Shown: positions 5,446 to 63,289 of the stretch, one piece after another
Layout: every line of letters starts with the position of its first letter
How positions within the stretch are numbered: the first letter of the stretch is position 1
Origin: Laetmonice hystrix
Taxonomy: Eukaryota
DNA length: 64,000 nucleotides
NCBI GenBank assembly: GCA_965235115.1
Contig: OZ249436.1
Span: forward strand, 8,186,001 to 8,250,000
Direction: 5' to 3'
Program-made: the position numbers and the translations under genes
Notes under the pieces: model-generated
Told to the model about the DNA's origin: nothing
The model's input: the letters and a program-made list of their open reading frames with translations, nothing else
The model's database searches: none

Positions 5446-5728
5446 ACCTGTAGGCCGACATGCACAAGACAACCTGTAGGCCGACATGCACAAGACAACC
5501 TGTAGGCCGACATGCACAAGACAACCTGTAGGCCGACATGCACAAGACAACCTGTAGGCCGACATGCACAAGACAACCTGTAGGCCGACATGCACAAGAC
5601 AACCTGTAGGCCGACATGCACAAGACAACCTGTAGGCCGACATGCACAAGACAACCTGTAGGCCGACATGCACAAGACAACCTGTAGGCCGACATGCACA
5701 AGACAACCTGTAGGCCGACATGCACAAG
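5446..5728. repeat. Minisatellite, about 11 x 26 bp (ACCTGTAGGCCGACATGCACAAGACA)
   Basis: Perfect tandem copies. Confidence 0.97.
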
Positions 5729-29209: not shown

Positions 29210-29627
29210 TAGGTCTACAGTGTTAACTGTGGTATAGGTCTACAGTGTTAACTGTGGTATAGGTCTACAGTGTTAACTGTGGTATAGGTCTACAGTGTTA
29301 ACTGTGGTATAGGTCTACAGTGTTAACTGTGGTATAGGTCTACAGTGTTAACTGTGGTATAGGTCTACAGTGTTAACTGTGGTATAGGTCTACAGTGTTA
29401 ACTGTGGTATAGGTCTACAGTGTTAACTGTGGTATAGGTCTACAGTGTTAACTGTGGTATAGGTCTACAGTGTTAACTGTGGTATAGGTCTACAGTGTTA
29501 ACTGTGGTATAGGTCTACAGTGTTAACTGTGGTATAGGTCTACAGTGTTAACTGTGGTATAGGTCTACAGTGTTAACTGTGGTATAGGTCTACAGTGTTA
29601 ACTGTGGTATAGGTCTACAGTGTTAAC
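29210..29627. repeat. Minisatellite, about 17 x 25 bp (TAGGTCTACAGTGTTAACTGTGGTA)
   Basis: Perfect tandem copies. Confidence 0.98.
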
Positions 29628-33300: not shown

Positions 33301-34100
33301 CGTCTGTATATCAGGCTGGGCTTAGCCCGTGTCCGCCTAATACAGACATGGCCGGTATGGCCCATATCATACCAACCTAGGACTTCATGGACAGTCTACA
33401 CGTAGCTTGTATGGCACCAAATTACCTACCTGTAACAGATAAGTGGTGACCTGCTTGGTCCTAACTTGTTTGCCAAACGGCACCAACTTTTCAGCCTGCA
33501 CACGTGTGACGGATCAGGTGTTACCAATTTTTTCTAAGCCAACTAAGAGGTTCTACCCTGCATCAAACATGCCCTGCCTTGTACCAATTTGTGATCTTGC
33601 CAATTTCCAAACTTTACCAGCCGGTGTGACCGGACTACCAAAATTAAAAGTAAGCTTCGCTTTACCATCACCGCCTCCTTTCCGATACGACACACTGGTT
33701 CAATGGTGAGAACCATCGAGCTTTGCCTGGTCGGAGAGGAACAAGACAAGGAAAGGTTCCTGCATTGATTGCTTAAAATTTCATATCAATTTCATGTATT
33801 TCCTATCGTCACATCCAGGATCCTGTGTAGAAATTCTTTGTAAAATGGGTGACAAATTGGAAAGAAAAGAAATAAAGGCTGCGTGTCAGAAACAGTGAAA
33901 TTTCGAGGTGGTTATTTAGTCATTTTGTTTACCTTTGTGCAATTCGCCGCATCAGTTGACCTGTCATACTGTTGTCATATTAATTTATTGCTTACTTTAT
34001 CTGGATATTGACACGTTTGTGGACTATGACAATATATGAGGTAAAGTGTGTTCAACGTACTATGCTAAATAACCAAACTGTACTACTTCGTCTTTTATAG

Positions 34101-34357
34101 GTACCTCGGACTTTCCAGCTCTGCATACCAAAGCACACTTGAGAGCCCAAAAATCAATTTCCGTAGCAAGTGCTCCAAAATTGCCGTCTTTGCTCCTCAG
34201 CAGCGAGAGCTTTGCCTTCGATCAAAGAATGTTTTGGACATTATCAGCCAGGGTGCCTCCATGGGCATTGAGGAGTGCCAGCACCAATTCCACGATCGCC
34301 GCTGGAACTGCACAACTTTCAACAACACAAGTGTCTTTGGAAAGGTCCTGCAACTCA
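34101..34357 (+). CDS. WntA: Wnt ligand (WntA-like), coding exon 2 of 4
   Basis: ttttatag| acceptor and |gtgagt donor; encodes YLGLSSSAYQSTLESPKINFRSKCSKIAVFAPQQRELCLRSKNVLDIISQGASMGIEECQHQFHDRRWNCTTFNNTSVFGKVLQL, with the Wnt ECQxQFxxRRWNC motif. Confidence 0.95.
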
Positions 34358-35399
34358 GTGAGTTCTTGTGGTTGCACTTTCTGAATGCTATGCCTGGTTC
34401 TTTTACGCTACACTTCAGCTAACCCTGAGAACATGAGCCCAATGCTGCCATCTCATTTTGGACCATCACAATCAAAACGTGTCTTTAATTTCAACAAGAG
34501 CAGCATTTAGTTCATGATACAGTGTGAAATACGATGGAAATATACATGGTCATCTATCTCCCTTTAAATATTAATCAATTAATGGGATGAAATGGGGTCA
34601 AACTAGGAACTGCTGAGTAAATTATAATCTCTTAAAGGGGACGTTTAAAACCAGATAGATCAGCTTACAGATATGGAAGACATACTACATGGATTTACAT
34701 AAGGAAACAGAGGTGACCATGCATACATTCATTACATGAAAGATCAAGGTGTGGACGACAGGGAAATGTGAGCACAGTTGTTCATTAAGTGTAGTACCTT
34801 GCAAAGATACTTGATATATATATATATATTCTATTTTATACAACATGTAAAGAAGGTCAGTATGTTTTTTTCCCTATTTTTTGATCAAATATAACTTGGA
34901 CAACAAAGGAATTGATGCGAGGAACTGGCACTAGAAGTTGAGTCAGACTTAAGAAGTAGGTAAGGTCCATTGGGAATGATTAGGACACTCCATAACTATT
35001 ATGACTTCAGCAAACTATTATGTACCATTATTTACGAGTACAATTATGGAATGACAGAGTATATTTAAAGCAAGTTCAAGCAGGAGAGGATATACGACAA
35101 TTCTGGTTTGAAAATATTCAATAACATAATTATCTAGATATCTGTGTTTTCTAGATATCTTTCTTAGGAATTTTTTCGAATGGATCCATTTTTTGTTCAG
35201 TTTTACAAATATCTAATGTTGTAAATGATAAGGGTTATTTTAGACATTGAAAAATTATTGGTATTTAATAATACAAATGATAGGTGGTATCTGCATTCGT
35301 AACCTACAATTTTGTCATGGGTGTAGAGTAGATCTATGATATATAATTGGTGTATCCTTTAACCTGAACGTTGTCTTCAGGTGTGAACCTACACGGTTC

Positions 35400-45900: not shown

Positions 45901-46910
45901 CTTCTTTTGATAAAGACGACAAAGTGATCAAACTCGGGTCATAGCTGCTGTCTGTCACTCACCAGCTGTTGGCACTAGCCCTGAGTCTGCTAATTAGGCA
46001 CTAGAGAATGCATCCATGTGAAAATAACCTCGGGCCTGTAATTATTCAGCCATAAGTGTTAATTGCACCCATACCAAATCTATGGATAGCTTAAAGATAA
46101 GTACTTCAAAGCGTTTTGTATTTCGCCTGGGAGAAACCCCAGCGATATTGCCCCAAACCTTTCCTTTGCTGGTAATGAGTGATTTTCTTTTTCAGCAACC
46201 AGTTTTAAGAATCTCAAAGGAATTAGCTCAAAAGCTTTGGGACAAATACTGCCGCTAGGCGGAGCCTTAAGATAGTCATGGAACCACGAGCGCTCCTCGT
46301 TGGTGCTTAGCCGTTCGAGTGCTACCAGATATACTTCCACCGATTATAGCCTTTACTTAAAGGACACCCACAAAATGAATGACTGAATGATTTAGGTCAA
46401 TATAGTAGGACGTCATCTGTAATGATGATGGGAGCCAATAGCACCCAATAGGGGGCACGAGGGGCTCTACACTCTCCCATCGTCCCCAAAATCCCTGGAA
46501 TTTTCATTGTTTGCCTATCATTGGTCAGTAGGCCTAGACTCTACATGTTCTTTGTGCCGCTCGGTCCGAAGTGAGGCCTTTAAAAAGGATCCGAACTGTT
46601 ACTTTAATCTTGGATAGCGAAAGAAGTGCCAGGAATAGGCCTACTTTAGATATTCATCTCCAGTACGATTGGTACGACATTCAGCCACCTCAGTATTTCA
46701 TAGTCTTGTACAGTTTACTACATGTAACAGCTAAAACCAGTGCCCACCCCATTCTTGAAAACGCGATTATTCACCTTCCGTCCTTTCTTTAACCCCCGTT
46801 TCCTAATTCATGGAGCCGTTCAGGAAAATATTATACACGAACCGCAGTTGATATAATAGACGGTAAAACCTAAAATATTTGTTAAAGGTATCATCATTTC
46901 TTTTATCCAG

Positions 46911-47179
46911 AGAGTCGCGAGAAAGCCTACATTTACGGCATCTCCTCCGCTGGAGTCATGCACTCAGTGACGAAGGCCTGCGCCAAGGGCGATCTGAGCA
47001 TCTGTACATGTGACAGAAACATCCGCTCCCGGGAGGCTAAAGGGGACTTCATCTGGGGTGGCTGCTCCGAGAACGTCAACTTTGGTGACAAGTTCACCCG
47101 TGAGTTCCTCGACACGAAGGAGAACGGGCAGAGTGTGGAGGGCCTCATGAATGTCTGGAACAACGGCGCTGGAAGGAAG
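46911..47179 (+). CDS. WntA: Wnt ligand (WntA-like), coding exon 3 of 4
   Basis: ttttatccag| acceptor and |gtaggt donor, phase compatible with exon 2; (K)SREKAYIYGISSAGVMHSVTKACAKGDLSICTCD...FIWGGCSEN...LMNVWNNGAGRK. The SRExAYIY..SSAGV and RACAKG-like motifs are why I favour WntA; Wnt family membership is certain, the subfamily needs a tree. Confidence 0.95.
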
Positions 47180-47768
47180 GTAGGTGCTGCCACCTGCTGC
47201 ATTCAAACCGAACCTGTACAAAGTGTGAAGGATGGACCCCAAACTCTGCAATATTTCCTTGCCAGCCATCACTGAGGCCTATTCTGCAAATTGGTTGCAG
47301 TCTTTAAACTCAACTTTTCAAGAATGTAGGCTAACAAAGAAACTTTAGGCCTAGCCTATAGGACTGGTTAGTTCATGGTATAATCTGCCTTGGAATACAG
47401 TTGAAAGAAATGCTCCCAAAAATTGAAATTGAAAGCCCCCCCCCCAAGCATTGCGGTTTTAATCAGTTTCGCCACAGTCAAGGTCTGTTTACAGCCAATT
47501 TATATTTAACAACGCAGAAATCGATTAAAAACGATGCATCTTCATAGTCACTAGAGGGCGCCACCTAGACGTTTGGGACAAGTTATCCGTTGAGAAACTT
47601 TGGGACAAGTTATCCGTTGAGGAACGTCTGTCCGGTGCCCCTTTAAAATAAAGCCCTAAGAAGAGAACATCATTGTAGATTTTAAAGTTTCAACTGCAGA
47701 TTTGTAGGTATTAGCTTAGTTAGACCTATATTTGTATACTTATGACCCTTTCTGGTATTTCCTTGCAG

Positions 47769-51362: not shown

Positions 51363-51542
51363 TTATCTCTTTGGAAACATTTTCATGAAGAAGATCATCC
51401 AGCAAAACGTCATGCAGACAACAATGAGCATGATCCATATCCACCAGTTACATGATTTCTGGACGTGTTTATCTAACCGCTCAGACTCCACCTTCAATCG
51501 CGACATGTTGGAGTCGGCCAACTGAGTGGACTTCCCAAGGCT
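51363..51542 (-). CDS. USE1: USE1 exon 6 of 6 (C-terminal transmembrane anchor)
   Basis: ttgcag|SLGKSTQLADSNMSRLKVESERLDKHVQKSCNWWIWIMLIVVCMTFCWMIFFMKMFPKR*; tail anchor. Total CDS 741 nt, 246 aa. Candidate AATAAA on the minus strand at 50945-50950. Confidence 0.94.
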   Translation of the reverse strand, partial: SLGKSTQLADSNMSRLKVESERLDKHVQKSCNWWIWIMLIVVCMTFCWMIFFMKMFPKR

Positions 51543-51970
51543 CTGCAAGCAGACATACATGAGATGCAAATGAGCTGTTGTCGCTCTCATGCAGCATTTG
51601 AGACTATGGCATTTTTATATGTAGAACAAAAGAACATGCTGATGGAAAATTCTAAAAAAACTAATTATGCAACAATACAGTTCTGGAAAAATTTATGTCA
51701 AGAACAGTTACTCATACTGGGTTGGCTCTACAGTTGGCATCAATTATTGGAGGGCATAAACTTCACTTAAACTACCTGAAAATTCATAATTTCATTATAA
51801 TTGTGGCCACATTATTCGACAGGGCATTTCCAATTTCTCTCAAAAAGATTCTTGACCTTGTACGGCTACACCTCAAAAAAGGCCCTCTCTTTTGATGATC
51901 ACTGTCTTTTCATGAAATCTAGCAAAAAAAGCCCAGGACATTTAGGTCTGCAACCTTGAAAAAAATATAC

Positions 51971-52152
51971 CTTGTTATCTTGTTGAACAATTTTGCCTGC
52001 AGCTCTAGCGTTTTCCTTCAGGTTTCTTGCGAGCTGCACCATCTCCTCAGCCAGCTTCTCCTGCACACTGTGCTGGTACTTAAGGACAGCGTCCAAGTCC
52101 TCTTCTGTACTCCCACCACCTTTGCGCCGATGTACCAAACCATTCTCAGACT
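51971..52152 (-). CDS. USE1: USE1 exon 5 of 6 (SNARE coil)
   Basis: ttgcag|..SENGLVHRRKGGGSTEEDLDAVLKYQHSVQEKLAEEMVQLARNLKENARAAGKIVQQDNK|gtatat; QEKLAEEM..LAR.LK motif. Confidence 0.94.
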
Positions 52153-52503
52153 CTGCAACCAAACCAAAATAGTCACCCAGACATTGTCACAATACAATTC
52201 AAGACAATATAATTCTAGTTTGTTTGATACACCATTATTCTTCATTTCCTCCAAGACAAGATCATACGATGGGAATAATTTTCTCTTTTTTTTTGGGGGG
52301 GGGGGGGGGGGGGGGGGTTAAAACAAATTCCTAGAATACCATCCAGGTGTGGACAAGATAAATTCATTGCAAAAATAACACATGTATTTTTGTTGATGAC
52401 AAAATCCTAGAGTAGCACCCAGATACGCAGTGGGTAGAAGCCTACTTTGAATGAACTCATTACAAACTAAACAGTCCATATCTAGTTATCTACCATGACC
52501 CAC

Positions 52504-52657
52504 CTTTCCCATCATTGCCAAGAAGTTCGTCTCTCATTTCCCGTTGATACCGCCCTTTTGTTTGTAGGTGTACCTCTCGGCTGGGCAGGGCATTGTCTGC
52601 AGTGCGCAGTGCTGGGGTCAGCAGGTCAGTCGCCAAGGCTTTCTCAGTGACTGAGGA
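52504..52657 (-). CDS. USE1: USE1 exon 4 of 6
   Basis: ttccag|SSVTEKALATDLLTPALRTADNALPSREVHLQTKGRYQREMRDELLGNDGK|gtgggt. Confidence 0.92.
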
Positions 52658-52961
52658 CTGGAATAACAAACAGGATCATGTCCATCAATTATAAAACAAA
52701 TTCTAATACGAGTTCCAAGTATGGTTTCAACCTTGACCTGTGTGAAGTTAAATGTTTTAAATGTCAAAGATATCGCTGGCAACATCATTCCCATTGTCAA
52801 ACATCATACCCATTGTCAAACATCATGCCCACTGTCAAAGAAGATGACGATTAGGACGAATTTAACTGATCCAATTATGATTTTTTCCTAACTCTTATTC
52901 TGAATTAGACCCCCTATCTATAAAAGAATTTAACTGAAGAAATATCGGTGAAAGTACTTAC

Positions 52962-53040
52962 CAACTTTTCTGTTTCTATAAGGCCTTTTAGAAATTCCAC
53001 TTTTCTTGTATACTCTGCAAGTATCTCTTGTGTCGGTTTA
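52962..53040 (-). CDS. USE1: USE1 exon 3 of 6
   Basis: caatag|KPTQEILAEYTRKVEFLKGLIETEKL|gtaagt; resembles USE1 KP..EV..EY..KVDFLKG. Confidence 0.92.
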
Positions 53041-53195
53041 CTATTGAGACAACAGAAATAATAAAAATCATATAAAACCAGCAATTGTGAGGTTTGTATT
53101 CTGTTAGAAATATACTATTTAATTTGTGTAAAGCGAAAGATCGACCTGGAAAATGTAAAATTTTCAGTTCATTCTGCATCCTCTGAGCCACTTAC

Positions 53196-53245
53196 CCTGG
53201 AGCTTTTCTAAGTTCTGTCAACTGGTCTTGCAAAGCTCCAACATA
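53196..53245 (-). CDS. USE1: USE1 exon 2 of 6
   Basis: ttttcag|YVGALQDQLTELRKAPG|gtaagt; 50 nt, in frame. Confidence 0.9.
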
Positions 53246-53477
53246 CTGAAAAATTAAACATACATAATATTATGTGACTGACACTGTCACTGACCTGCTG
53301 CTGACAGTGACAACGCCACGCCGCCCACGGCCGTCAGTGCAAGCAGAGCGGCCGTCTGCCCACGTCAGCGGTTACGGAGCGATAATAGGGGTTTTGTGTA
53401 CGATTAGTTGGCCGCTGTACCTGTCATTCGTGACTAACTTTACAAACAATATCCACATACATTTCTGGTAAAGTTAC

Positions 53478-53573
53478 CTTTTCCAACCGCCAGTCTCCTT
53501 CCCTCCTCTCCCCTGCCATCGCCTCACAGCGATGCAACAAGCGGTTGAAGTTTGTCTCCAGCCGAGTCGCCAT
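53478..53573 (-). CDS. USE1: Vesicle transport SNARE USE1, exon 1 of 6
   Basis: MATRLETNFNRLLHRCEAMAGERREGDWRLEK|gtaac; closely resembles the USE1 N-terminus (SRLELNLVRLLSRCEAMA...WRLEK). Confidence 0.93.
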
Positions 53574-54011
53574 TTTGCCACTCTCCGTTCGCTATCTTTT
53601 TTTACGAAGAGTTCCACTTCCGGCCACTGGACTTCACCGGAAGCGCATGGCCCATGGAGGATCTCCTTGGCTACTGTAAACACAATCGATCGGTTCCGTG
53701 GCACGCTTGCCAGGTATGTAATCCGAATGATAGGCTGGCCGACGATCTGTACTTCCAGCAAGGGTTGTTAAGGGAAGGCTACTTGAGCCCTAGACACGCA
53801 AAGCTGTCGATGACAGCTGTTCAGCCTGTTGCTATCTCGAATGCAACTGGTGTGAAGATCACGGCCTGACGGGGTGAAAGTCCGGTACTGCATGACCACA
53901 CAGCGAAACCGCATCTCTCCATCGGCATCGGTCTTGACTGGAGTGGAGAAGTGAAAAAAGATCTCTCGGATAGACTCAGGGGAAGTGCAGCCAAGTTTTA
54001 GCGGGCTTCAG
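53574..54011. promoter_or_regulatory. Bidirectional promoter for USE1 and the TEX45-like gene, plus probable non-coding first exon of the latter
   Basis: Head-to-head genes and a CpG-rich stretch. ETS-type CACTTCCGG/CCGGAAG at about 53614-53643, YY1-type AAAATGGCG over the USE1 ATG, X-box-like ATCTCCTTGGCTAC 53661-53674, forkhead GTAAACA 53676-53682, and a strong + strand donor CAG|gtaaga after 54011. Confidence 0.65.
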
Positions 54012-54327
54012 GTAAGAGCGTCACAGTTTTATTATTTCTCTAGTCTAGTAACTAAGACAGTAAGTTATTGATGGAAACTAGTTTAAAAAAGACTCAATGA
54101 TACCACAGTATATAGTTAACGCAAGTTGTTGGCTTTTTGATAGGGGGCTTATCATCATAAAGTCATCAATGTTTTTACAAGTTATGGTATGGTACTTTCT
54201 GTGGCATATCATCATTCATAACAAAACGAGTAAAGTAGACTAGTAGCCCTTCAATAAATTAATTTTACTACAAGTTTATTTACTAAGGAACTTTGACTAA
54301 TGATAGACTCAGTCTTTGGTTGAAGTG

Positions 54328-55081: not shown

Positions 55082-55196
55082 GGTAGCAATCAGAGGGTAG
55101 CAATTTTGTATCATTATCGTTTAACTAATAAAATATTAATCCATTTTCAGCTGAAGAAAAGCATCTGATCAGACTAACATAGATATTGATGTCAAT

Positions 55197-55788
55197 ATGG
55201 CAACTGCAGGAATAACACGTTTCGCCCCATTGCCAGGAAGACAAAAACTGATGCCAAGTCACAAAGAAGGAACCGAATTTCTGGCAGCATCACATTTCAC
55301 CATCTCCCAAGATGCTGGTGTTACCAGTCCATCCCTTAAGAGCATCTTCAAGAAGGACTACACTCCGTGGCAAATATCTGGTCGGCCCCCAGCCTCTGTA
55401 CCACCTCAGCCAGCTGAGGTGCTTCACAAAGATGACCGCTTCTTTGCTGAAAAAGCCTCTGAGACAACCAAAGCATACAAGTTTCGTGCAACGAACTTGA
55501 TCCGACCAGACATGAGTGATGTATCTGCCAAGCTTCGTACAACCAACTTCAAGATGGACTGTGACGTATCAAAATTTGATTCATTCCATACGAGTCATAA
55601 CATGGATTTCTACCCGAAGGAGTTTCAGGGGGTGCCAAAGAGCATGCCCAAAGACAACCCTATGGAAAGCTTCATCCCACAAGGGGATCCTGAGAAGGCA
55701 CTCCACCCACTCTCTGATTACAGAGACAGGTTCCGAGGCCACGACGCCCTCACCACCAAACCAGACAGAGCACCCTCAATGCACCAAG
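55197..55788 (+). CDS. SAXO5: TEX45/SAXO5 (C19orf45)-like axonemal microtubule-binding repeat protein, coding exon 1 of 7
   Basis: Acceptor ttttcag|55151, ATG 55197, donor G|gtaagg. MATAG...EFLAASHF...SIFKKDY...TSHNMDF...FIPQGDPEK...SDYRDRF; the xFLxASHF start and [ST]xxxxx[DFY] Mn-type repeats are as I recall them in TEX45/SAXO5. Confidence 0.75.
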
Positions 55789-57555: not shown

Positions 57556-57728
57556 TTGGACCACCCACGATCGTCGGGGACCAAAGACTTCACCACTTTG
57601 CCACAACCCAGAATGATATCTTCAAGGGCGCTTCCTTCCCACGCATCCGTTCCTTTCCAGCCCCGACTGGGTGCAATATCCCCCGGGGCGATCTCCTCAA
57701 GGAGGTTACCATGGAAACTGTCCACCAG
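57556..57728 (+). CDS. SAXO5: TEX45/SAXO5-like coding exon 2 of 7
   Basis: cccccag|..GPPTIVGDQRLHHFATTQNDIFKGASFPRIRSFPAPTGCNIPRGDLLKEVTMETVHQ|gtgagt; phase compatible and repeats the IPxGDxxK motif. Confidence 0.75.
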
Positions 57729-58399
57729 GTGAGTTTGATGCTTACTTCAATAAACCGAGCTTTCATTCCTAACGACAACCTGCACCACCATATTATGAGA
57801 TCAAAGATTGTAAGTATACTTCTGGTAATCTCCATCAAACGGTTGTTAAGTTAAAAAAAAGGATTAATTAAGTATCAATTAAAAAAGGTTGTTGCACAAA
57901 GTTGTGTAAATTACTATCATTACATAGATAACTGTGTGCCAGGACCCCAGAGGGGGTGTCTAATAATTGTCTAATTGTGTTGAATTGGATGACTTAATGA
58001 CCCGCCACACCGACATGGGCTTTGCTCCAGATGGGACACGCGTGCAGTTGTTATTGTACATAACAAACAAATGTATATCTATAGGATCAACAAAAAAATC
58101 CTGCTAAAAACACTTTGAAATCGCCTTTAGGCTTTAATAATATACCATATCTCGCGATATTTCCATTGTTCTAGTGACTTGATATTCAAGGAAAAAACTG
58201 GTTAAAATTAGTGGGGGGGGGGAGCACTGAAATTTTACTTCATATAATAAGATAAATTAGATAATGTGATAGTCAGCTAAAAATTTATCTCTTTTAGATC
58301 TATATTCTTTTTTTTTAATATTAGGATTCATTTTTGCACACCCTGTATGTGACCTTCATGATTATATTTCCATTCAATTATATATTTTTGGTCCTGTAG

Positions 58400-58559
58400 G
58401 CGTCATTTGGCGGCCATGACGCTGCGCGGAGGCCTTACAACAAGAATGACGTGATGAGTAAACTGGGCCAGACCAACTTCAAGACCCACGACGGCCATGG
58501 CTCCTTCGACACGTACATGAGCACGGCAGCTGAATGCTACCAGCCAACTAAAACTCAAC
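58400..58559 (+). CDS. SAXO5: TEX45/SAXO5-like coding exon 3 of 7
   Basis: ctgtag|ASFGGHDAARRPYNKNDVMSKLGQTNFKTHDGHGSFDTYMSTAAECYQPTKTQ|gtcagt; KLGQTNFK echoes KLRTTNFK of exon 1. Confidence 0.75.
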
Positions 58560-59004
58560 GTCAGTCCAACTTTTAATTTGTAACTGATCTTTGCCAAAAC
58601 GAGAGGTGATACTGACAGTGCCAGTGTTACTTTGCGTACTTCACGTTAAACTGGTGTCGCATCTTCCCGCCAGAGTATACGATGCTTGAAATGTTTGGCT
58701 GTACTTGTCCTAATGTAAATACCTGTTGGTATTCATCTACATGTATAACACTCTTACAGTGTCTGTCAAACTGTAGGATCCAATAATATAATAATAATAT
58801 AACCAAGAGGTTTTTTCCTTAGATTATTTCCTGTGTCTTTGAATTTGACCACTGCATTGAAGTAACCCAGTATAGTGATGGGTGTACCACCATAACATCA
58901 ATGGCAAATAGACCAGTATGCCCTTCATTCTATTGTTGATTTTGATTTGATTTGTTGGTTTTACAATTGATTAAGATTAGGGTTTCAAACGTTTCTAACC
59001 TCAG

Positions 59005-59123
59005 CAACTCGAAGTGGACCATCCAAGCATCGCAACCATAGTGATTTACCAGAGGGAGACCTCGACCCAAACCGCGCTACAGAGAGGGTATCAACGACAA
59101 CCAACCGGTTTTATCACTCGAAT
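59005..59123 (+). CDS. SAXO5: TEX45/SAXO5-like coding exon 4 of 7
   Basis: ctcag|..TRSGPSKHRNHSDLPEGDLDPNRATERVSTTTNRFYHSN|gtaagc. Confidence 0.72.
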
Positions 59124-59304
59124 GTAAGCAAACGTTACTCATGCTAGGTTAAAAAAACATAGTTCTACTTCTTTCCTGGCTATAGTCATGTGGAAGTATT
59201 GGTTTGGGTTGGGCTGCCTCTGGTACACTGCTGCCATCTGGTGATGTAACTGATGAACCAAAGAATCCTCCCACATATTACATTTACCGATATATCATAT
59301 TCAA

Positions 59305-59488
59305 ATTGGCTTGTATTTTGATTGTAGAAACCAAGTTATGGTGCACCTAACATAATGTCAGGAGCATTGGCTTGTATTTTGATTGTAGAAACCAAGTTAT
59401 GGTGCACCTAACATAATGTCAGGAGCATTGGCTTGTATTTTGATTGTAGAAACCAAGTTATGGTGCACCTAACATAATGTCAGGAGCA
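59305..59488. repeat. Exact 3 x 61 bp tandem repeat spanning an intron/exon boundary
   Basis: Unit ATTGGCTTGTATTTTGATTGTAG|AAACCAAGTTATGGTGCACCTAACATAATGTCAGGAGC; acceptor AGs end at 59327, 59388 and 59449. Confidence 0.97.
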
Positions 59489-59648
59489 GGCAAACGGACC
59501 AGAAGTAACGTTTCATTTGGTGAGCCTCAACACGGTGACATGTTGTACAATACAACCACCAGCTCTACTTTCAAACCTGTCCGAGCGCCTTACAAACTCC
59601 CCAGCGCCGACATGACTACCAAGAGCCACGTGCCCATGGATTATTATG
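59450..59648 (+). CDS. SAXO5: TEX45/SAXO5-like coding exon 5 of 7 (third of three tandem acceptors)
   Basis: ttgtag|KPSYGAPNIMSGAGKRTRSNVSFGEPQHGDMLYNTTTSSTFKPVRAPYKLPSADMTTKSHVPMDYY|gtgagc; only the third acceptor keeps the frame open. Confidence 0.72.
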
Positions 59649-59848
59649 GTGAGCCAATAACAAACTATGCAAAAAAAAGACAAAATCTTTTAAAATGAGA
59701 TTTTGTTCAGTATATCATAGAAAACGAATAGAAACGACAAAACATTAAATAAAGAATGCATAGGCACTAGGATCAGAGAAGAATTTTAACGAACTGAAAA
59801 ATGAATTCATTACAGTAAACTGTCGCATTATTGGTTGTTTCAATTCAG

Positions 59849-59937
59849 CTGGGAGGAGGGGCCAGACAACCACATCATCTGATTTTCAGGACCCGAAGCA
59901 AGGGAAGACGATTCCCAATCCTACAGCTCTTGAAAAT
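59849..59937 (+). CDS. SAXO5: TEX45/SAXO5-like coding exon 6 of 7
   Basis: attcag|..GRRGQTTTSSDFQDPKQGKTIPNPTALEN|gtaagc. Confidence 0.72.
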
Positions 59938-60346
59938 GTAAGCAACAATAACAAAAATGTGTTGGGAGATTCTGACAGAAAATAATAAGTTTAATATTGA
60001 ATGGTCATTGGAGAATCTCACTGGTTTATGTGTATTTGTCTCTGGATTCTAGTCACTTTAAAGCAATCCTAGGCAAACTTGTACACTTACTCCCTTACTT
60101 ATTTATTTTGGAATATCTGTCCGAATTCTCATCTCTATGAAGTTTGAACCTTAATTGAAACTATATTTCACTGTACATGGCCTAGATTTCTTTCTAAAGT
60201 ATAAAAGAGAACAGCATCTCTTACACAATATGAAATCCGATGCCTCAGCCTAGAAGCTGTGACCGTAGTTTGTATCCTAAATGATATTCCCCCCCCCCCA
60301 GTTTTGTATTATACCTAAGATTAATATTGTTTACCTATTGTTACAG

Positions 60347-60508
60347 TTGAAGAACTCGCACATCCATGCACCACTTGGTGAGAAACGTGCCTTTACTACC
60401 GAACATCTGGAGCAGTACATCCCTAAATCTTTGATCCGGGTGGCCATAGATAGCGGCCGACTCCAGCGAAGTACTGTACCCCTCGGCACCATGGACATCA
60501 ACCCGTGA
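60347..60508 (+). CDS. SAXO5: TEX45/SAXO5-like coding exon 7 of 7
   Basis: ttacag|LKNSHIHAPLGEKRAFTTEHLEQYIPKSLIRVAIDSGRLQRSTVPLGTMDINP*; total CDS 1494 nt, 497 aa; AATAAA at 60800-60805. Confidence 0.75.
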   Translation: MKNSHIHAPLGEKRAFTTEHLEQYIPKSLIRVAIDSGRLQRSTVPLGTMDINP

Positions 60509-62110
60509 ATACCTCCCCCAAACACTTCCCCACATCCCAGAGCATTTCATGAGAGCATTACAAACACGGACCAAACAAAACAAGGACAGGAAAGAACGGG
60601 TTCAATTTTTCATAAAGATGTTTGATACTCTGTTACCCTACCTGCGTGATACTGAAGTATATATGACACTACAAATGAAAGGTCTCAAAAAGATTAACGT
60701 ACTCCGATGTACTGGTAATTTATCTGTGATACGTACTGTTATTAATTGTCTGCCATGATGCATTTTAATTTTAGTGATCGTTTTTAACCGTGAATATCAA
60801 ATAAATTTACTTAATTGAAACGCCTAGCGCCTAGGATGAGTTGGATGCATTAAAGATTTGCTTACCTACATGTAATATTTATAGTCAATGTGTTGTTTAC
60901 GTCTCAGCCAAGAGTGAGCAGTTTTATTAACCGTGTTGATATTTGACATGTACCGTACTAGTCATTTCATGTGGTCACCGTAATAAGTAATGCTTTATGT
61001 GTAGATTATTTACTCCAAATAGGATGGCTTCAGTTGAAGCCCAAATCATAGGACGACATGCCTATGATTGTATGAAATCGTGTTTTAGTGACTTTTATAA
61101 ATAATACATATTGTGCTGCTGTGCCGATGCTAGTCCAACTGATGTTTTAACAATCGCATTAGTATTACATTGTCACCGAGTATTACAAGTACTGGTTGTG
61201 TGTTTTTACTTTAGCTCCAAATATACTAACTTTGGATCAAAGAAAGATATACTCCCTAAAAAGCATTTTGATGTACTTATTAATGTTTTCTTCCAGATAA
61301 TTCTATACTAGCTGCTTTACTTTCAGTGATGTACTGATAGCAGGAGATTCTTTCTGCCTTTTAGAAAGATCATCTGTACCATTATCTTGCCATAGCTAAA
61401 GATCTGTAATATAAAGATCTGGTGTTATACTCGTGCATCGCTGTGCAGTGGAAATTGGTGGATCTGATTCTGTTTAGATATTTTGTTTTGGGAAAATATA
61501 TTCCGTTTTTATTTGCGTTATTTTATTACCGGTATTATTTTTTAAATATATCACCTAATCGGAGTGGGGTGGAGGTGGAGGTGGGGTTGCGAACGGATGG
61601 GCCGGAAAATGGCGTGATCTGAAATGGAGTGGGGATGGAGGTAGGATATAGGCGAGAATGGGAGATGGCTCAGACTGGTAAACTTTAGGGATCTGAGGCC
61701 TCTGTGATAGCTTTTTGGCTTTAGCCTCTATATTCATGTCTGCAGCAACCCACAAACGTCTGAAAGAGAAAGACATAATAAAGGCATTACAAGTTGGTAT
61801 TTTGTGTATTTTGTCATGTGTTATTGCTCAGAAGCGATGTTAAAGTTCTAAAATTAGTTCAACCCGTTTACTAGTACGCGTGAAACACGGGAAACTTTAT
61901 ACCATGGCCGTATTTCACCTGATTCTGCAGTATACAAGCACTGATCATGGTATAAAACCTTGATCACCTGAATGTCTCTATTCTATGGAAAACAATCTAT
62001 TTCATACGTTTTCCCCACAAAAAGATTTATTTAAAAAAAATCAAAGCCCCCTGCCCAATTTCTTATCTTTGCGTTCTTCCCATCTGGACAGACCACATAC
62101 ATCACTTTTA

Positions 62111-62239: not shown

Positions 62240-62921
62240 TTAGGAATCGCACAGGGGTACATGCAGGTACCGGTATTAAAGGCAGAGATTCTTTGCAGTT
62301 GCACCCCCCCACCCAGCCCAGCATGCAATGGTTCACTTTGGAAGGTCATCTGGTGGGCATAATTTGAACTAAAGTATCTCACTGAAAATTCCTACTCTTC
62401 ATGCAGTACCTAAAAAATAATGCCCTAACTTTCACCAGCTTGGGTTTTTTTTTAATTTTTATTTTTTTACGTTTACAAAATTAGTACATGTACATTATTT
62501 TATTTTAACCTATGATGGGCAGGATTATCAGAAGAGCTTTCACAATGCCACACAGAAAAGAAGAACACTTTTGCTTTCATTTTCACGTTTATTACAGTTC
62601 CACTTTTTGACTTTACTGAGAGGCCCGATGGATGTAACTTGTATTTACAAATTTCAGCACCAGTAGTGTTTGATAAAAATCATCACAACTCCCCAGTACA
62701 TGTACATATCAGCAACTATACAACTACCTTACCGTATTCAAACACTTCTGTGTCTAGTGCACATGTTCCTCGTTTTCTCATTGTTCCATTGTCCCACAGT
62801 CCCTTTCAAAATATCTTGTCCTTGAAGTTGAAGGCTGCTGCCAGTAATTGTTCACAAAACAAGGTTCTGGCTGAGGATGGTGGGAGGGTTAGCCCTGAAG
62901 ACCTTCTGGCCGTTTGTTTCC

Positions 62922-63126
62922 TCAATGTTTACGTTTCTCGTAGAGCCGATCATACATCGTCTTCCAGGGAGCGTGGGCGAAATATTCCGGCGGGGTGACT
63001 TCATTGAATCTGTTGGCCAGGTTGTGATAGACCGGGGTGCCATAGTATGTGCCAGTCTCCCAGCCTGGTACATCCTTCATCAGCTCGTTCTCATCATCAC
63101 GGTTCTTCCGTAATTGTGAAAGGAAC
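62922..63126 (-). CDS. NDUFA13: NADH:ubiquinone oxidoreductase subunit A13 (GRIM-19/B16.6), terminal exon; the rest of the gene lies beyond the window
   Basis: tttcag|..FLSQLRKNRDDENELMKDVPGWETGTYYGTPVYHN...EYFAHAPWK...*; matches the invertebrate B16.6 pattern LRRNRDEE.ELMK.VPGWEVGT.YG.PV. AATAAA on the minus strand at 62588-62593. Confidence 0.92.
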
Positions 63127-63289
63127 CTGAAACAGTGGTTTAATGATAAGGCTTCAAGAACATTGAGTGACGGGTGGTCTTCATCCATTATTTGTAGTAG
63201 ATGTTCATCTTTTCCAGATATGAATTGTCGAAAACGTCCCTGAACTTGATTGACCTCACAAGGTCACTCAATGTACAGGGAAATAGTAA

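What the first reader, a model, noticed from the sequence alone, without database searches (positions are those of the whole stretch)
59305..59488. Splice acceptor triplicated in tandem, with only the last copy in frame
Seen: a 61 bp unit containing the intron end and the first ~38 nt of TEX45-like exon 5 is present in three identical copies. Splicing to AG 59327 or 59388 reads KPSYGAPNIMSGALACILIVETKLWCT* (premature stop); only AG 59449 gives the full protein. Inference: the spliceosome must skip two locally identical acceptors, or this is a hypomorphic/NMD-generating allele. Copy number could tune expression, and four copies would not rescue the first acceptor because the stop is reached in the next unit. 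It is also a snapshot of intron extension by tandem duplication.
Basis: partly seen in the sequence, partly recalled or inferred. Interest (0 to 1): 0.7.

Follow-up and report, generated by a model that had tools for sequence, protein, structure and literature searches.

The report
Newborn splice-acceptor repeat in SAXO5 gene
A 61-base piece covering the end of an intron and the start of the next exon of a worm's cilia-protein gene was recently copied three times in a row, probably on one chromosome copy only, yet the assembled messenger RNA looks normal, so this is a small, young example of a known and apparently harmless kind of repeat.

Summary
In detail: three identical 61-bp units (59305-59487) each carry the acceptor of coding exon 5 of a SAXO5/TEX45 gene (497 aa, probably annelid). 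Copies 1 and 2 lead to a stop at residue 375. It is not an assembly artefact: the contigs of 3 of 3 DNA runs break exactly at the array's edges. Their depths give about two copies per chromosome on average, best read as a 3-copy/1-copy heterozygote. One run is spliced RNA by its joints. It joins 59123 directly to 59450, holds no contig over the extra copies, and keeps window-type letters at 5 of 12 variable sites. So the three-copy chromosome seems to give normal mRNA, and the extra copies act as intron. A loss of up to about half of its mRNA to decay cannot be excluded. This is a 'mirage' (tandem copy of an intron-exon boundary, described in amphioxus). The scan has noted the same kind many times, in this genome and in others. 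Mild added value: it is caught at birth, probably beside an unduplicated allele.

The parts
59305..59365 (+). Unit 1: 23 nt of intron end (acceptor AG ends 59327) plus 38 nt of exon start. It keeps the native upstream intron context. Not used in the assembled mRNA.
59366..59426 (+). Unit 2, identical (acceptor AG ends 59388). Not used in the assembled mRNA.
59427..59487 (+). Unit 3, identical (acceptor AG ends 59449). The acceptor seen in the spliced contig; its exon part runs on into the rest of the exon.
   Evidence: table 5 (59123>59450, GT..AG)
59124..59449 (+). Intron before coding exon 5: 326 nt on this chromosome; 204 nt if there is one copy.
59450..59648 (+). Coding exon 5 (199 nt, residues 349-415).
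55197..55788 (+). Coding exon 1 from the ATG (likely acceptor at 55150); Pfam SAXO5-like match E 4.6e-4, below the curated cut-off on its own.
57556..57728 (+). Coding exon 2 (model from splice signals and full-length alignment to 17 homologues; its end matches the loose end of an RNA contig).
58400..58559 (+). Coding exon 3.
59005..59123 (+). Coding exon 4; its donor after 59123 pairs with the repeated acceptor.
59849..59937 (+). Coding exon 6 (89 nt), shown by two GT..AG joints; both alleles are present in the spliced run.
   Evidence: tables 5, 7, 8
60347..60508 (+). Coding part of the last exon, stop at 60506-60508; Pfam SAXO5-like E 2.3e-6.

Best explanation
A very recent local tandem duplication (1 base of shared sequence at the break) happened to span the acceptor of coding exon 5 of SAXO5 and grew to three copies. 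It is probably still segregating, with a one-copy allele on the other chromosome of the same animal. The spliceosome mostly uses the last acceptor, the one attached to the complete exon, so the two extra copies are removed as intron (204 to 326 nt) and the protein is unchanged. The likely reason is recognition across the exon: copy 3 is nearest the downstream donor (199-nt exon against 260 or 321 nt) and nearest any enhancers in the 161 nt of exon that were not duplicated. Any transcripts spliced at copies 1 or 2 carry a stop far upstream of the last junction and would be cleared by nonsense-mediated decay. Shown: the sequence, its presence in reads, the gene model, the only joint assembled. 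Inferred: 3/1 genotype, near-equal output of the two alleles, the reason for the choice, decay of strays.
For: Real in reads: contig breaks at 59334/59459 in 3 of 3 DNA runs, as predicted. Genotype: unit and unit-to-unit contig depths recovered from the bins are 101/55, 105/54 and 119/53, ratios 1.84, 1.96 and 2.25. Expected: 1.5 for 3/3, about 1.65 for 3/2, about 2 for 3/1 or 2/2. In X1 the share of the window allele implied by 3/1 is 0.59, against 0.58 at the neighbouring two-allele stretch. RNA: run X4 covers exons only and has three GT..AG joints; one 331-nt contig runs unbroken from 59060 through 59123>59450 to 59916. Its 4 laid records account for all 9 bins checked, with 0 depth at 59140-59391. 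Use of copy 1 or 2 would add 52 specific 31-mers and split that contig into four. Both alleles appear in X4: 4 sites keep the window letter, 7 the other, 1 keeps both at depths 19.5 and 17.8. 6 of 8 non-window sites of X4 recur in X2 or X3, as two haplotypes of one animal would give. 11 of 13 listed coding differences are synonymous, and the part after the array is conserved in 17 of 17 homologues (51-76 identical of 125-136 aligned residues). Precedent: amphioxus mirages do not disturb splicing and differ in unit number between haplotypes (PMC3087553, passages).
Against: All RNA evidence is from one run of assembled contigs, which drop rare forms; its kind is not on record, and the tool warns that contig depth is no copy number. 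No contig links the array itself to an allele: the window-allele contig starts only 11 nt inside exon 5's end, and the long contig is a mosaic of both alleles. A 2:3 or, with noisy counts, a 1:2 allele ratio is not excluded (P 0.04-0.53 and 0.0001-0.12). Absolute depths in X1 fit 2/2 as well as 3/1 (observed/expected 0.97 and 1.05 against 0.90 and 0.92), and in X3 the neighbouring allele share (0.27) predicts a ratio of 2.82, not the 2.25 seen. Both flanking introns are short (204 and 200 nt), and in human data such introns favour the upstream acceptor (PMC9225289, section 9 read), which is the opposite of what is inferred here. No test separated the three acceptors mechanistically: folding is unremarkable (z -0.15) and accessibility is alike.
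Confidence: 0.7

Rival explanations
1. Mild hypomorph. The three acceptors compete on the three-copy chromosome; a sizeable share (a third to a half) goes to copies 1 or 2 and is destroyed by nonsense-mediated decay. The allele survives because the other allele is intact.
For: The stops lie 265-326 nt before the last junction. The 23 intron bases next to each AG are identical, and copy 1 has the native upstream context. Short introns favour upstream acceptors in human data. Non-window letters win more sites in the RNA run (7 against 4), and a 2:3 ratio fits.
Against: No contig carries the extended exon. The window allele has depth 19.5 beside 17.8 at exon 6. A 1:3 ratio is unlikely (P at most 0.006). 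Sites with the window letter are under-counted, since they show only if a DNA run kept the other letter.
Confidence: 0.17
2. The RNA run says little about the array: it comes from another animal, or from tissue where only one-copy alleles are seen, so the splicing of the three-copy allele is untested.
For: A one-copy allele gives exactly the same spliced contig (39 identical bases after the acceptor). 2 of 8 non-window sites of X4 are not seen in the DNA contigs. No contig bridges array and allele marker.
Against: The four runs are on record as one sample. 6 of 8 non-window sites recur in X2 or X3, the share expected if each of those runs keeps either allele at random. Window letters are kept at 5 of 12 sites, one of them 48 nt from the array.
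Confidence: 0.08
3. The copy number in the assembly is off: the animal is 2/2, or somatically mixed around two copies. The splicing conclusion would stand, but the 'one-copy allele beside it' would not.
For: Mean copies per pass are 2.19, 2.04 and 1.80; 2/2 fits the absolute depths of X1. Somatic length change is reported for the amphioxus Adh3 mirage (as cited in PMC3087553).
Against: The assembly has three units. The ratio falls below 2 in the run where the window allele is in excess and rises above 2 in the run where it is scarce at the neighbouring two-allele stretch, which 2/2 does not predict.
Confidence: 0.12
4. Intron gain in progress: copy 1 is used as acceptor, a cryptic donor in its exon part opens a new small intron, and a later AG closes it, as in the potato RdRp case.
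For: The unit has GT dinucleotides in its exon part, and 31 acceptor/donor/acceptor combinations keep a long reading frame.
Against: The unit holds no AGGT, none of the 31 combinations gives the normal protein, the cryptic donors are far from consensus, and no such joint is in the RNA contigs.
Confidence: 0.02

Closest known systems
'Mirage' minisatellites of amphioxus (Adh3; globins BflGb6 and BflGb9; troponin C; PGBD5). Sources: PMC3087553 and PMC3902484, passages read; the original Adh3 paper was not held.
   Same: Tandem copies of the 3' end of an intron plus the 5' part of the next exon; unit size within the reported 10-160 bp; splice signals in the copies; normal mRNA; unit number differing between haplotypes (6 and 3 for BflGb6).
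   Different: Probable annelid, not lancelet. Only three copies, all 100% identical, so younger than BflGb6 (81-100%). The other allele probably has no duplication at all.
Human F7 intron 7 37-bp VNTR (PMC1557585, abstract and outline seen)
   Same: A repeat whose unit spans a splice site gives identical spare sites that stay silent; the site adjoining the intact exon is used.
   Different: F7 repeats a donor and the first copy wins; here an acceptor is repeated and the last copy wins, the mirror case.
Competing splice sites of equal strength: intron-centric against exon-centric proximity (PMC9225289, passages and section 9 read; Reed and Maniatis only as cited there)
   Same: Identical acceptors 61 nt apart; choice of the one nearest the downstream donor is what exon definition predicts.
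   Different: Those are human data and minigenes. With flanking introns of about 200 nt they predict the upstream acceptor, which is not what the contig shows.
Intron gain by tandem duplication across an intron-exon boundary in potato RdRp (PMC4974935, abstract seen)
   Same: A tandem duplication spanning an acceptor.
   Different: There a cryptic donor in the upstream copy made a new intron; here no new intron is seen and the old intron simply grows.
SAXO5/TEX45 family, Pfam PF15373 (PMC10973386 passages)
   Same: Full-length match to 17 homologues of 481-507 aa; the family is described as an Mn-repeat microtubule inner protein found in sperm doublets.
   Different: Nothing notable in the protein; function in this animal was not tested.

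Membership tests
Mirage (tandem duplication of an intron-exon boundary) | Head-to-tail copies whose unit spans an intron-exon boundary | tested here: met
   23 nt intron + 38 nt exon, 3 copies; boundary shown by the 59123>59450 joint
Mirage (tandem duplication of an intron-exon boundary) | Minisatellite-size unit (10-160 bp in the described cases) with intact splice signal in the extra copies | tested here: met
   61 bp; TAG acceptor in all three
Mirage (tandem duplication of an intron-exon boundary) | Regular splicing of the mRNA is not disturbed | tested here: inconclusive
   Met at contig resolution in one run; rare forms and a partial loss cannot be seen
Mirage (tandem duplication of an intron-exon boundary) | Unit number varies between haplotypes | tested here: inconclusive
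   Mean 1.8-2.2 copies against 3 in the assembly; 3/1 favoured, 2/2 not excluded
Mirage (tandem duplication of an intron-exon boundary) | Somatic length instability (reported for Adh3 only) | not testable with these tools
   No raw long reads available; all four runs are contigs
Intron gain by tandem duplication | AGGT in the unit, or a cryptic donor in the upstream copy that is spliced to a downstream acceptor | tested here: not met
   No AGGT; no such joint; no combination restores the protein
Regulated unproductive splicing (AS-NMD) | Alternative form has a stop more than about 50 nt before the last junction (rule recalled) | tested here: met
   265 and 326 nt
Regulated unproductive splicing (AS-NMD) | The unproductive form is actually made | tested here: not met
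   No contig with the extended exon among the 4 records laid from the spliced run; rare forms would be missed
Regulated unproductive splicing (AS-NMD) | The arrangement is fixed and conserved | tested here: inconclusive
   Identical units and probable heterozygosity argue against it; no related genomes could be read
SAXO5/TEX45 (PF15373) | Full-length homology to family members | tested here: met
   17 of 17 hits carry PF15373 and align over the whole model; last exon reaches the Pfam cut-off alone

The most novel reading that the evidence does not exclude
The array is a segregating cis-acting allele in which one, two or three identical acceptors set how much SAXO5 mRNA escapes decay, perhaps differently in sperm-making and ciliated tissue. 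In this reading a heterozygous animal is a ready in-vivo test of how a lophotrochozoan spliceosome chooses among identical acceptors between two short introns, where the human rule predicts the upstream site.
Probability: 0.15. Interest if true: 0.4.

Novelty: new member of a known kind. Interest (0 to 1): 0.2.

Why it matters
Little on its own. It shows that an acceptor can be tripled without visible harm, which explains how the long splice-site repeats of such genomes get started and why they are tolerated. If the 3/1 genotype holds, the same cells carry the state before and after the duplication, so ordinary raw RNA reads could measure the cost of spare acceptors directly. It is also a caution for annotation: a gene finder that takes the first acceptor would call this gene broken.

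Tried and rejected
Assembly artefact: rejected, the loop is in 3 of 3 DNA runs. Homozygous 3/3, or 3/2: rejected by depth ratios. In-frame rescue through other AGs: none among 13 AGs tested except 59449. New intron by cryptic donor: no joint. RNA structure hiding copies 1 and 2: not supported; folding energy is at shuffle level and the three acceptors are about equally accessible in three window sizes. Branch-point difference: copies 2 and 3 gain a consensus-like branch motif at -39 from the exon part, with two AGs between it and the acceptor; copy 1 has a weaker one at -42 (consensus recalled). This cannot separate copy 2 from 3 and was not testable. The run search said 'no RNA holder listed'; X4 was recognised as spliced only from its joints. 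X4 has no cover at 58560-59059 and no contig joins across, so the start of coding exon 4 rests on the reading frame and the alignment alone. No whole genome is held, so no genome-wide count was made. No solved structure matched a homologue by sequence. Literature: 7 searches ran on the repeat question or the gene plus one on SAXO5. 'Mirage' with splice and amphioxus gave 2 papers; 'mirages' with polychaete gave 0; no paper on a heterozygous acceptor duplication in an annelid appeared. The library lacks most subscription papers, so this is weak evidence of absence. The supplements of PMC3087553 (unit alignments) were not opened; they bear on how alike the amphioxus units are.

Full report
1. 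The observation. The window holds three letter-identical 61-bp units at 59305-59487, with one more shared base at 59488. Each unit is the last 23 nt of an intron and the first 38 nt of an exon; the acceptors end at 59327, 59388 and 59449. There is 1 base of shared sequence at the right break and none at the left, and no 16-mer of the unit occurs elsewhere in the window. So this is a local duplication, not a mobile element known from this window.

2. The gene. Seven coding exons (55197-55788, 57556-57728, 58400-58559, 59005-59123, 59450-59648, 59849-59937, 60347-60508) give 497 aa. The first coding exon found 17 proteins among 296 candidates, all with Pfam PF15373 (SAXO5-like), 481-507 aa long. 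The best named ones are from Capitella and Owenia (54% and 51%), then bivalves, so the animal is probably an annelid (inference). The spliced model aligns end to end with all 17. None has an insertion at the array, and the part after it is as conserved as the part before. The first and last coding exons hit PF15373; the other 5 exons tested alone hit nothing. SAXO5/TEX45 is described as a microtubule inner protein of sperm doublets (PMC10973386, passages). Acceptors 1 and 2 give 375 aa with the stop 326 or 265 nt before the last junction; of 13 AGs in 59300-59500 only 59449 gives the full protein.

3. Is it real, and how many copies? Four public contig sets from one sample hold the stretch. 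In X1, X2 and X3 the flanking contigs end at 59334 and restart at 59459. These are the points where a 31-mer graph of the array branches, while a one-copy locus would give a single contig. The repeat is therefore in the reads of 3 of 3 DNA runs. From three bins per run I solved for the depth of the unit contig and the unit-to-unit contig (largest residual 0.04): 101/55, 105/54 and 119/53, ratios 1.84, 1.96 and 2.25. A 3/3 animal gives 1.5, 3/2 about 1.65, 3/1 or 2/2 about 2. Mean copies per pass are 2.19, 2.04 and 1.80. With three units in the assembly, 3/1 is the simplest reading. In X1, where the window allele leads at three two-allele stretches (about 30 to 23), 3/1 predicts 1.88 against 1.84 seen. 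Against: 2/2 fits X1's absolute depths as well, X3's neighbouring allele share predicts 2.82, and the tool warns that contig depth is no copy number. I put 3/1 at about three in four.

4. What the RNA shows. X4 is not on record as RNA, but it covers only exons and has three GT..AG joints: 59123>59450, 59648>59849 and 59937>60347. One 331-nt contig runs through the exon part of the unit without a break. The 4 records laid explain the depth of all 9 bins I checked, with none at 59140-59391. A message spliced at copy 1 or 2 would add 52 new 31-mers and, before any graph cleaning, cut that contig into four. A one-copy allele would give the same contig, so the question is whether the window's haplotype is expressed. 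Among 12 variable sites in X4-covered exon sequence, 4 keep the window letter, 7 the other, and 1 keeps both at depths 19.5 (window) and 17.8. One search left 13 substitution rows and 1 indel row unshown; all 9 of X4's own substitutions were shown, so hidden rows could only add window-letter sites. 6 of 8 non-window sites of X4 recur in X2 or X3, which fits two haplotypes of one animal. Under a rough model (the assembler keeps the deeper allele; recalled behaviour, effective counts 7-40 assumed), 4 or more of 11 has P at most 0.006 for a 1:3 ratio, 0.0001-0.12 for 1:2, 0.04-0.53 for 2:3 and about 0.9 for 1:1. Equal use of three acceptors with full decay is thus unlikely; a mild loss is open. 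11 of the 13 coding differences I checked are synonymous, as expected of two working alleles. Limits: one run, contigs only, and no contig ties the array to an allele marker.

5. Mechanism. Shown: only the last acceptor appears. Inferred: it wins because it adjoins the complete exon and lies nearest the downstream donor (exon 199 nt against 260 and 321). Human data describe such a cross-exon preference under exon definition, but they favour the upstream acceptor when both introns are short (PMC9225289), and here they are 204 and 200 nt. That tension is the one mildly curious point. Structure does not explain it (z -0.15; mean unpaired share 0.35-0.51 and alike for all three). Copies 2 and 3 gain a branch-like motif at -39 from the exon part, which may help them over copy 1 but not copy 3 over copy 2. 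Decay of strays would hide any minority use.

6. Comparison with what is known. Tandem copies of an intron end plus exon start are called 'mirages' in amphioxus. They have units of 10-160 bp, differ in number between haplotypes and do not disturb splicing (PMC3087553, PMC3902484; passages). I took the term from earlier notes of this scan and checked it in those two papers. The human F7 VNTR is the donor-side mirror (abstract). The potato case of intron gain (abstract) differs: no AGGT, no cryptic-donor joint here. The scan has 28 notes in this genome that fit a look-up for such duplications, of which 8 were listed and all 8 describe splice-site repeats; these are unchecked notes and not evidence. 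Chance alone would put a splice site into one of this window's 16 arrays 0.09-0.31 times.

7. Verdict. Real, correctly described, and an ordinary young member of a known kind. No sign of function. Interest 0.2. The boldest open reading, a copy-number allele that trims SAXO5 output through decay, gets 0.15.

Noticed in passing
window 59849-59937: A coding exon not obvious from the finding; shown by two GT..AG joints, with three variants between the alleles, both expressed.
   Followed up: yes
window 59637-59916 (X4 record 27): The window-allele RNA contig starts only 11 nt inside the upstream exon, not the 22 nt that a simple two-allele bubble would give, and is not joined to the upstream path. 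Unexplained; may be graph cleaning or low depth at that spot.
   Followed up: no
window 51366-53520, minus strand: A Use1 (SNARE) gene lies head to head with SAXO5; its last exon hits PF09753. The two may share a promoter near 53500-53700.
   Followed up: partly
window 62900-63130, minus strand: Last exon of a GRIM-19/NDUFA13 gene (PF06212), tail to tail with SAXO5, whose RNA contig runs about 850 nt past 60800.
   Followed up: partly
window 34069-34419 and 46886-47272: Two consecutive Wnt exons (PF00110 positions 3-59 and 59-151) about 12.5 kb apart; subfamily not determined.
   Followed up: partly
window 58300-60800: The two haplotypes differ strongly, for example 11 substitutions and 5 gap letters in 218 bp at 59915-60132.
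   Followed up: no
window 3983-52839: Fifteen further tandem arrays with periods 7-43, several with 100% identical units (5446-5728, 29210-29627) and several of only two copies: short tandem duplication is frequent in this genome.
   Followed up: partly
window 54000-54020: A strong donor-like site upstream of the first coding exon suggests at least one non-coding first exon; not tested.
   Followed up: no
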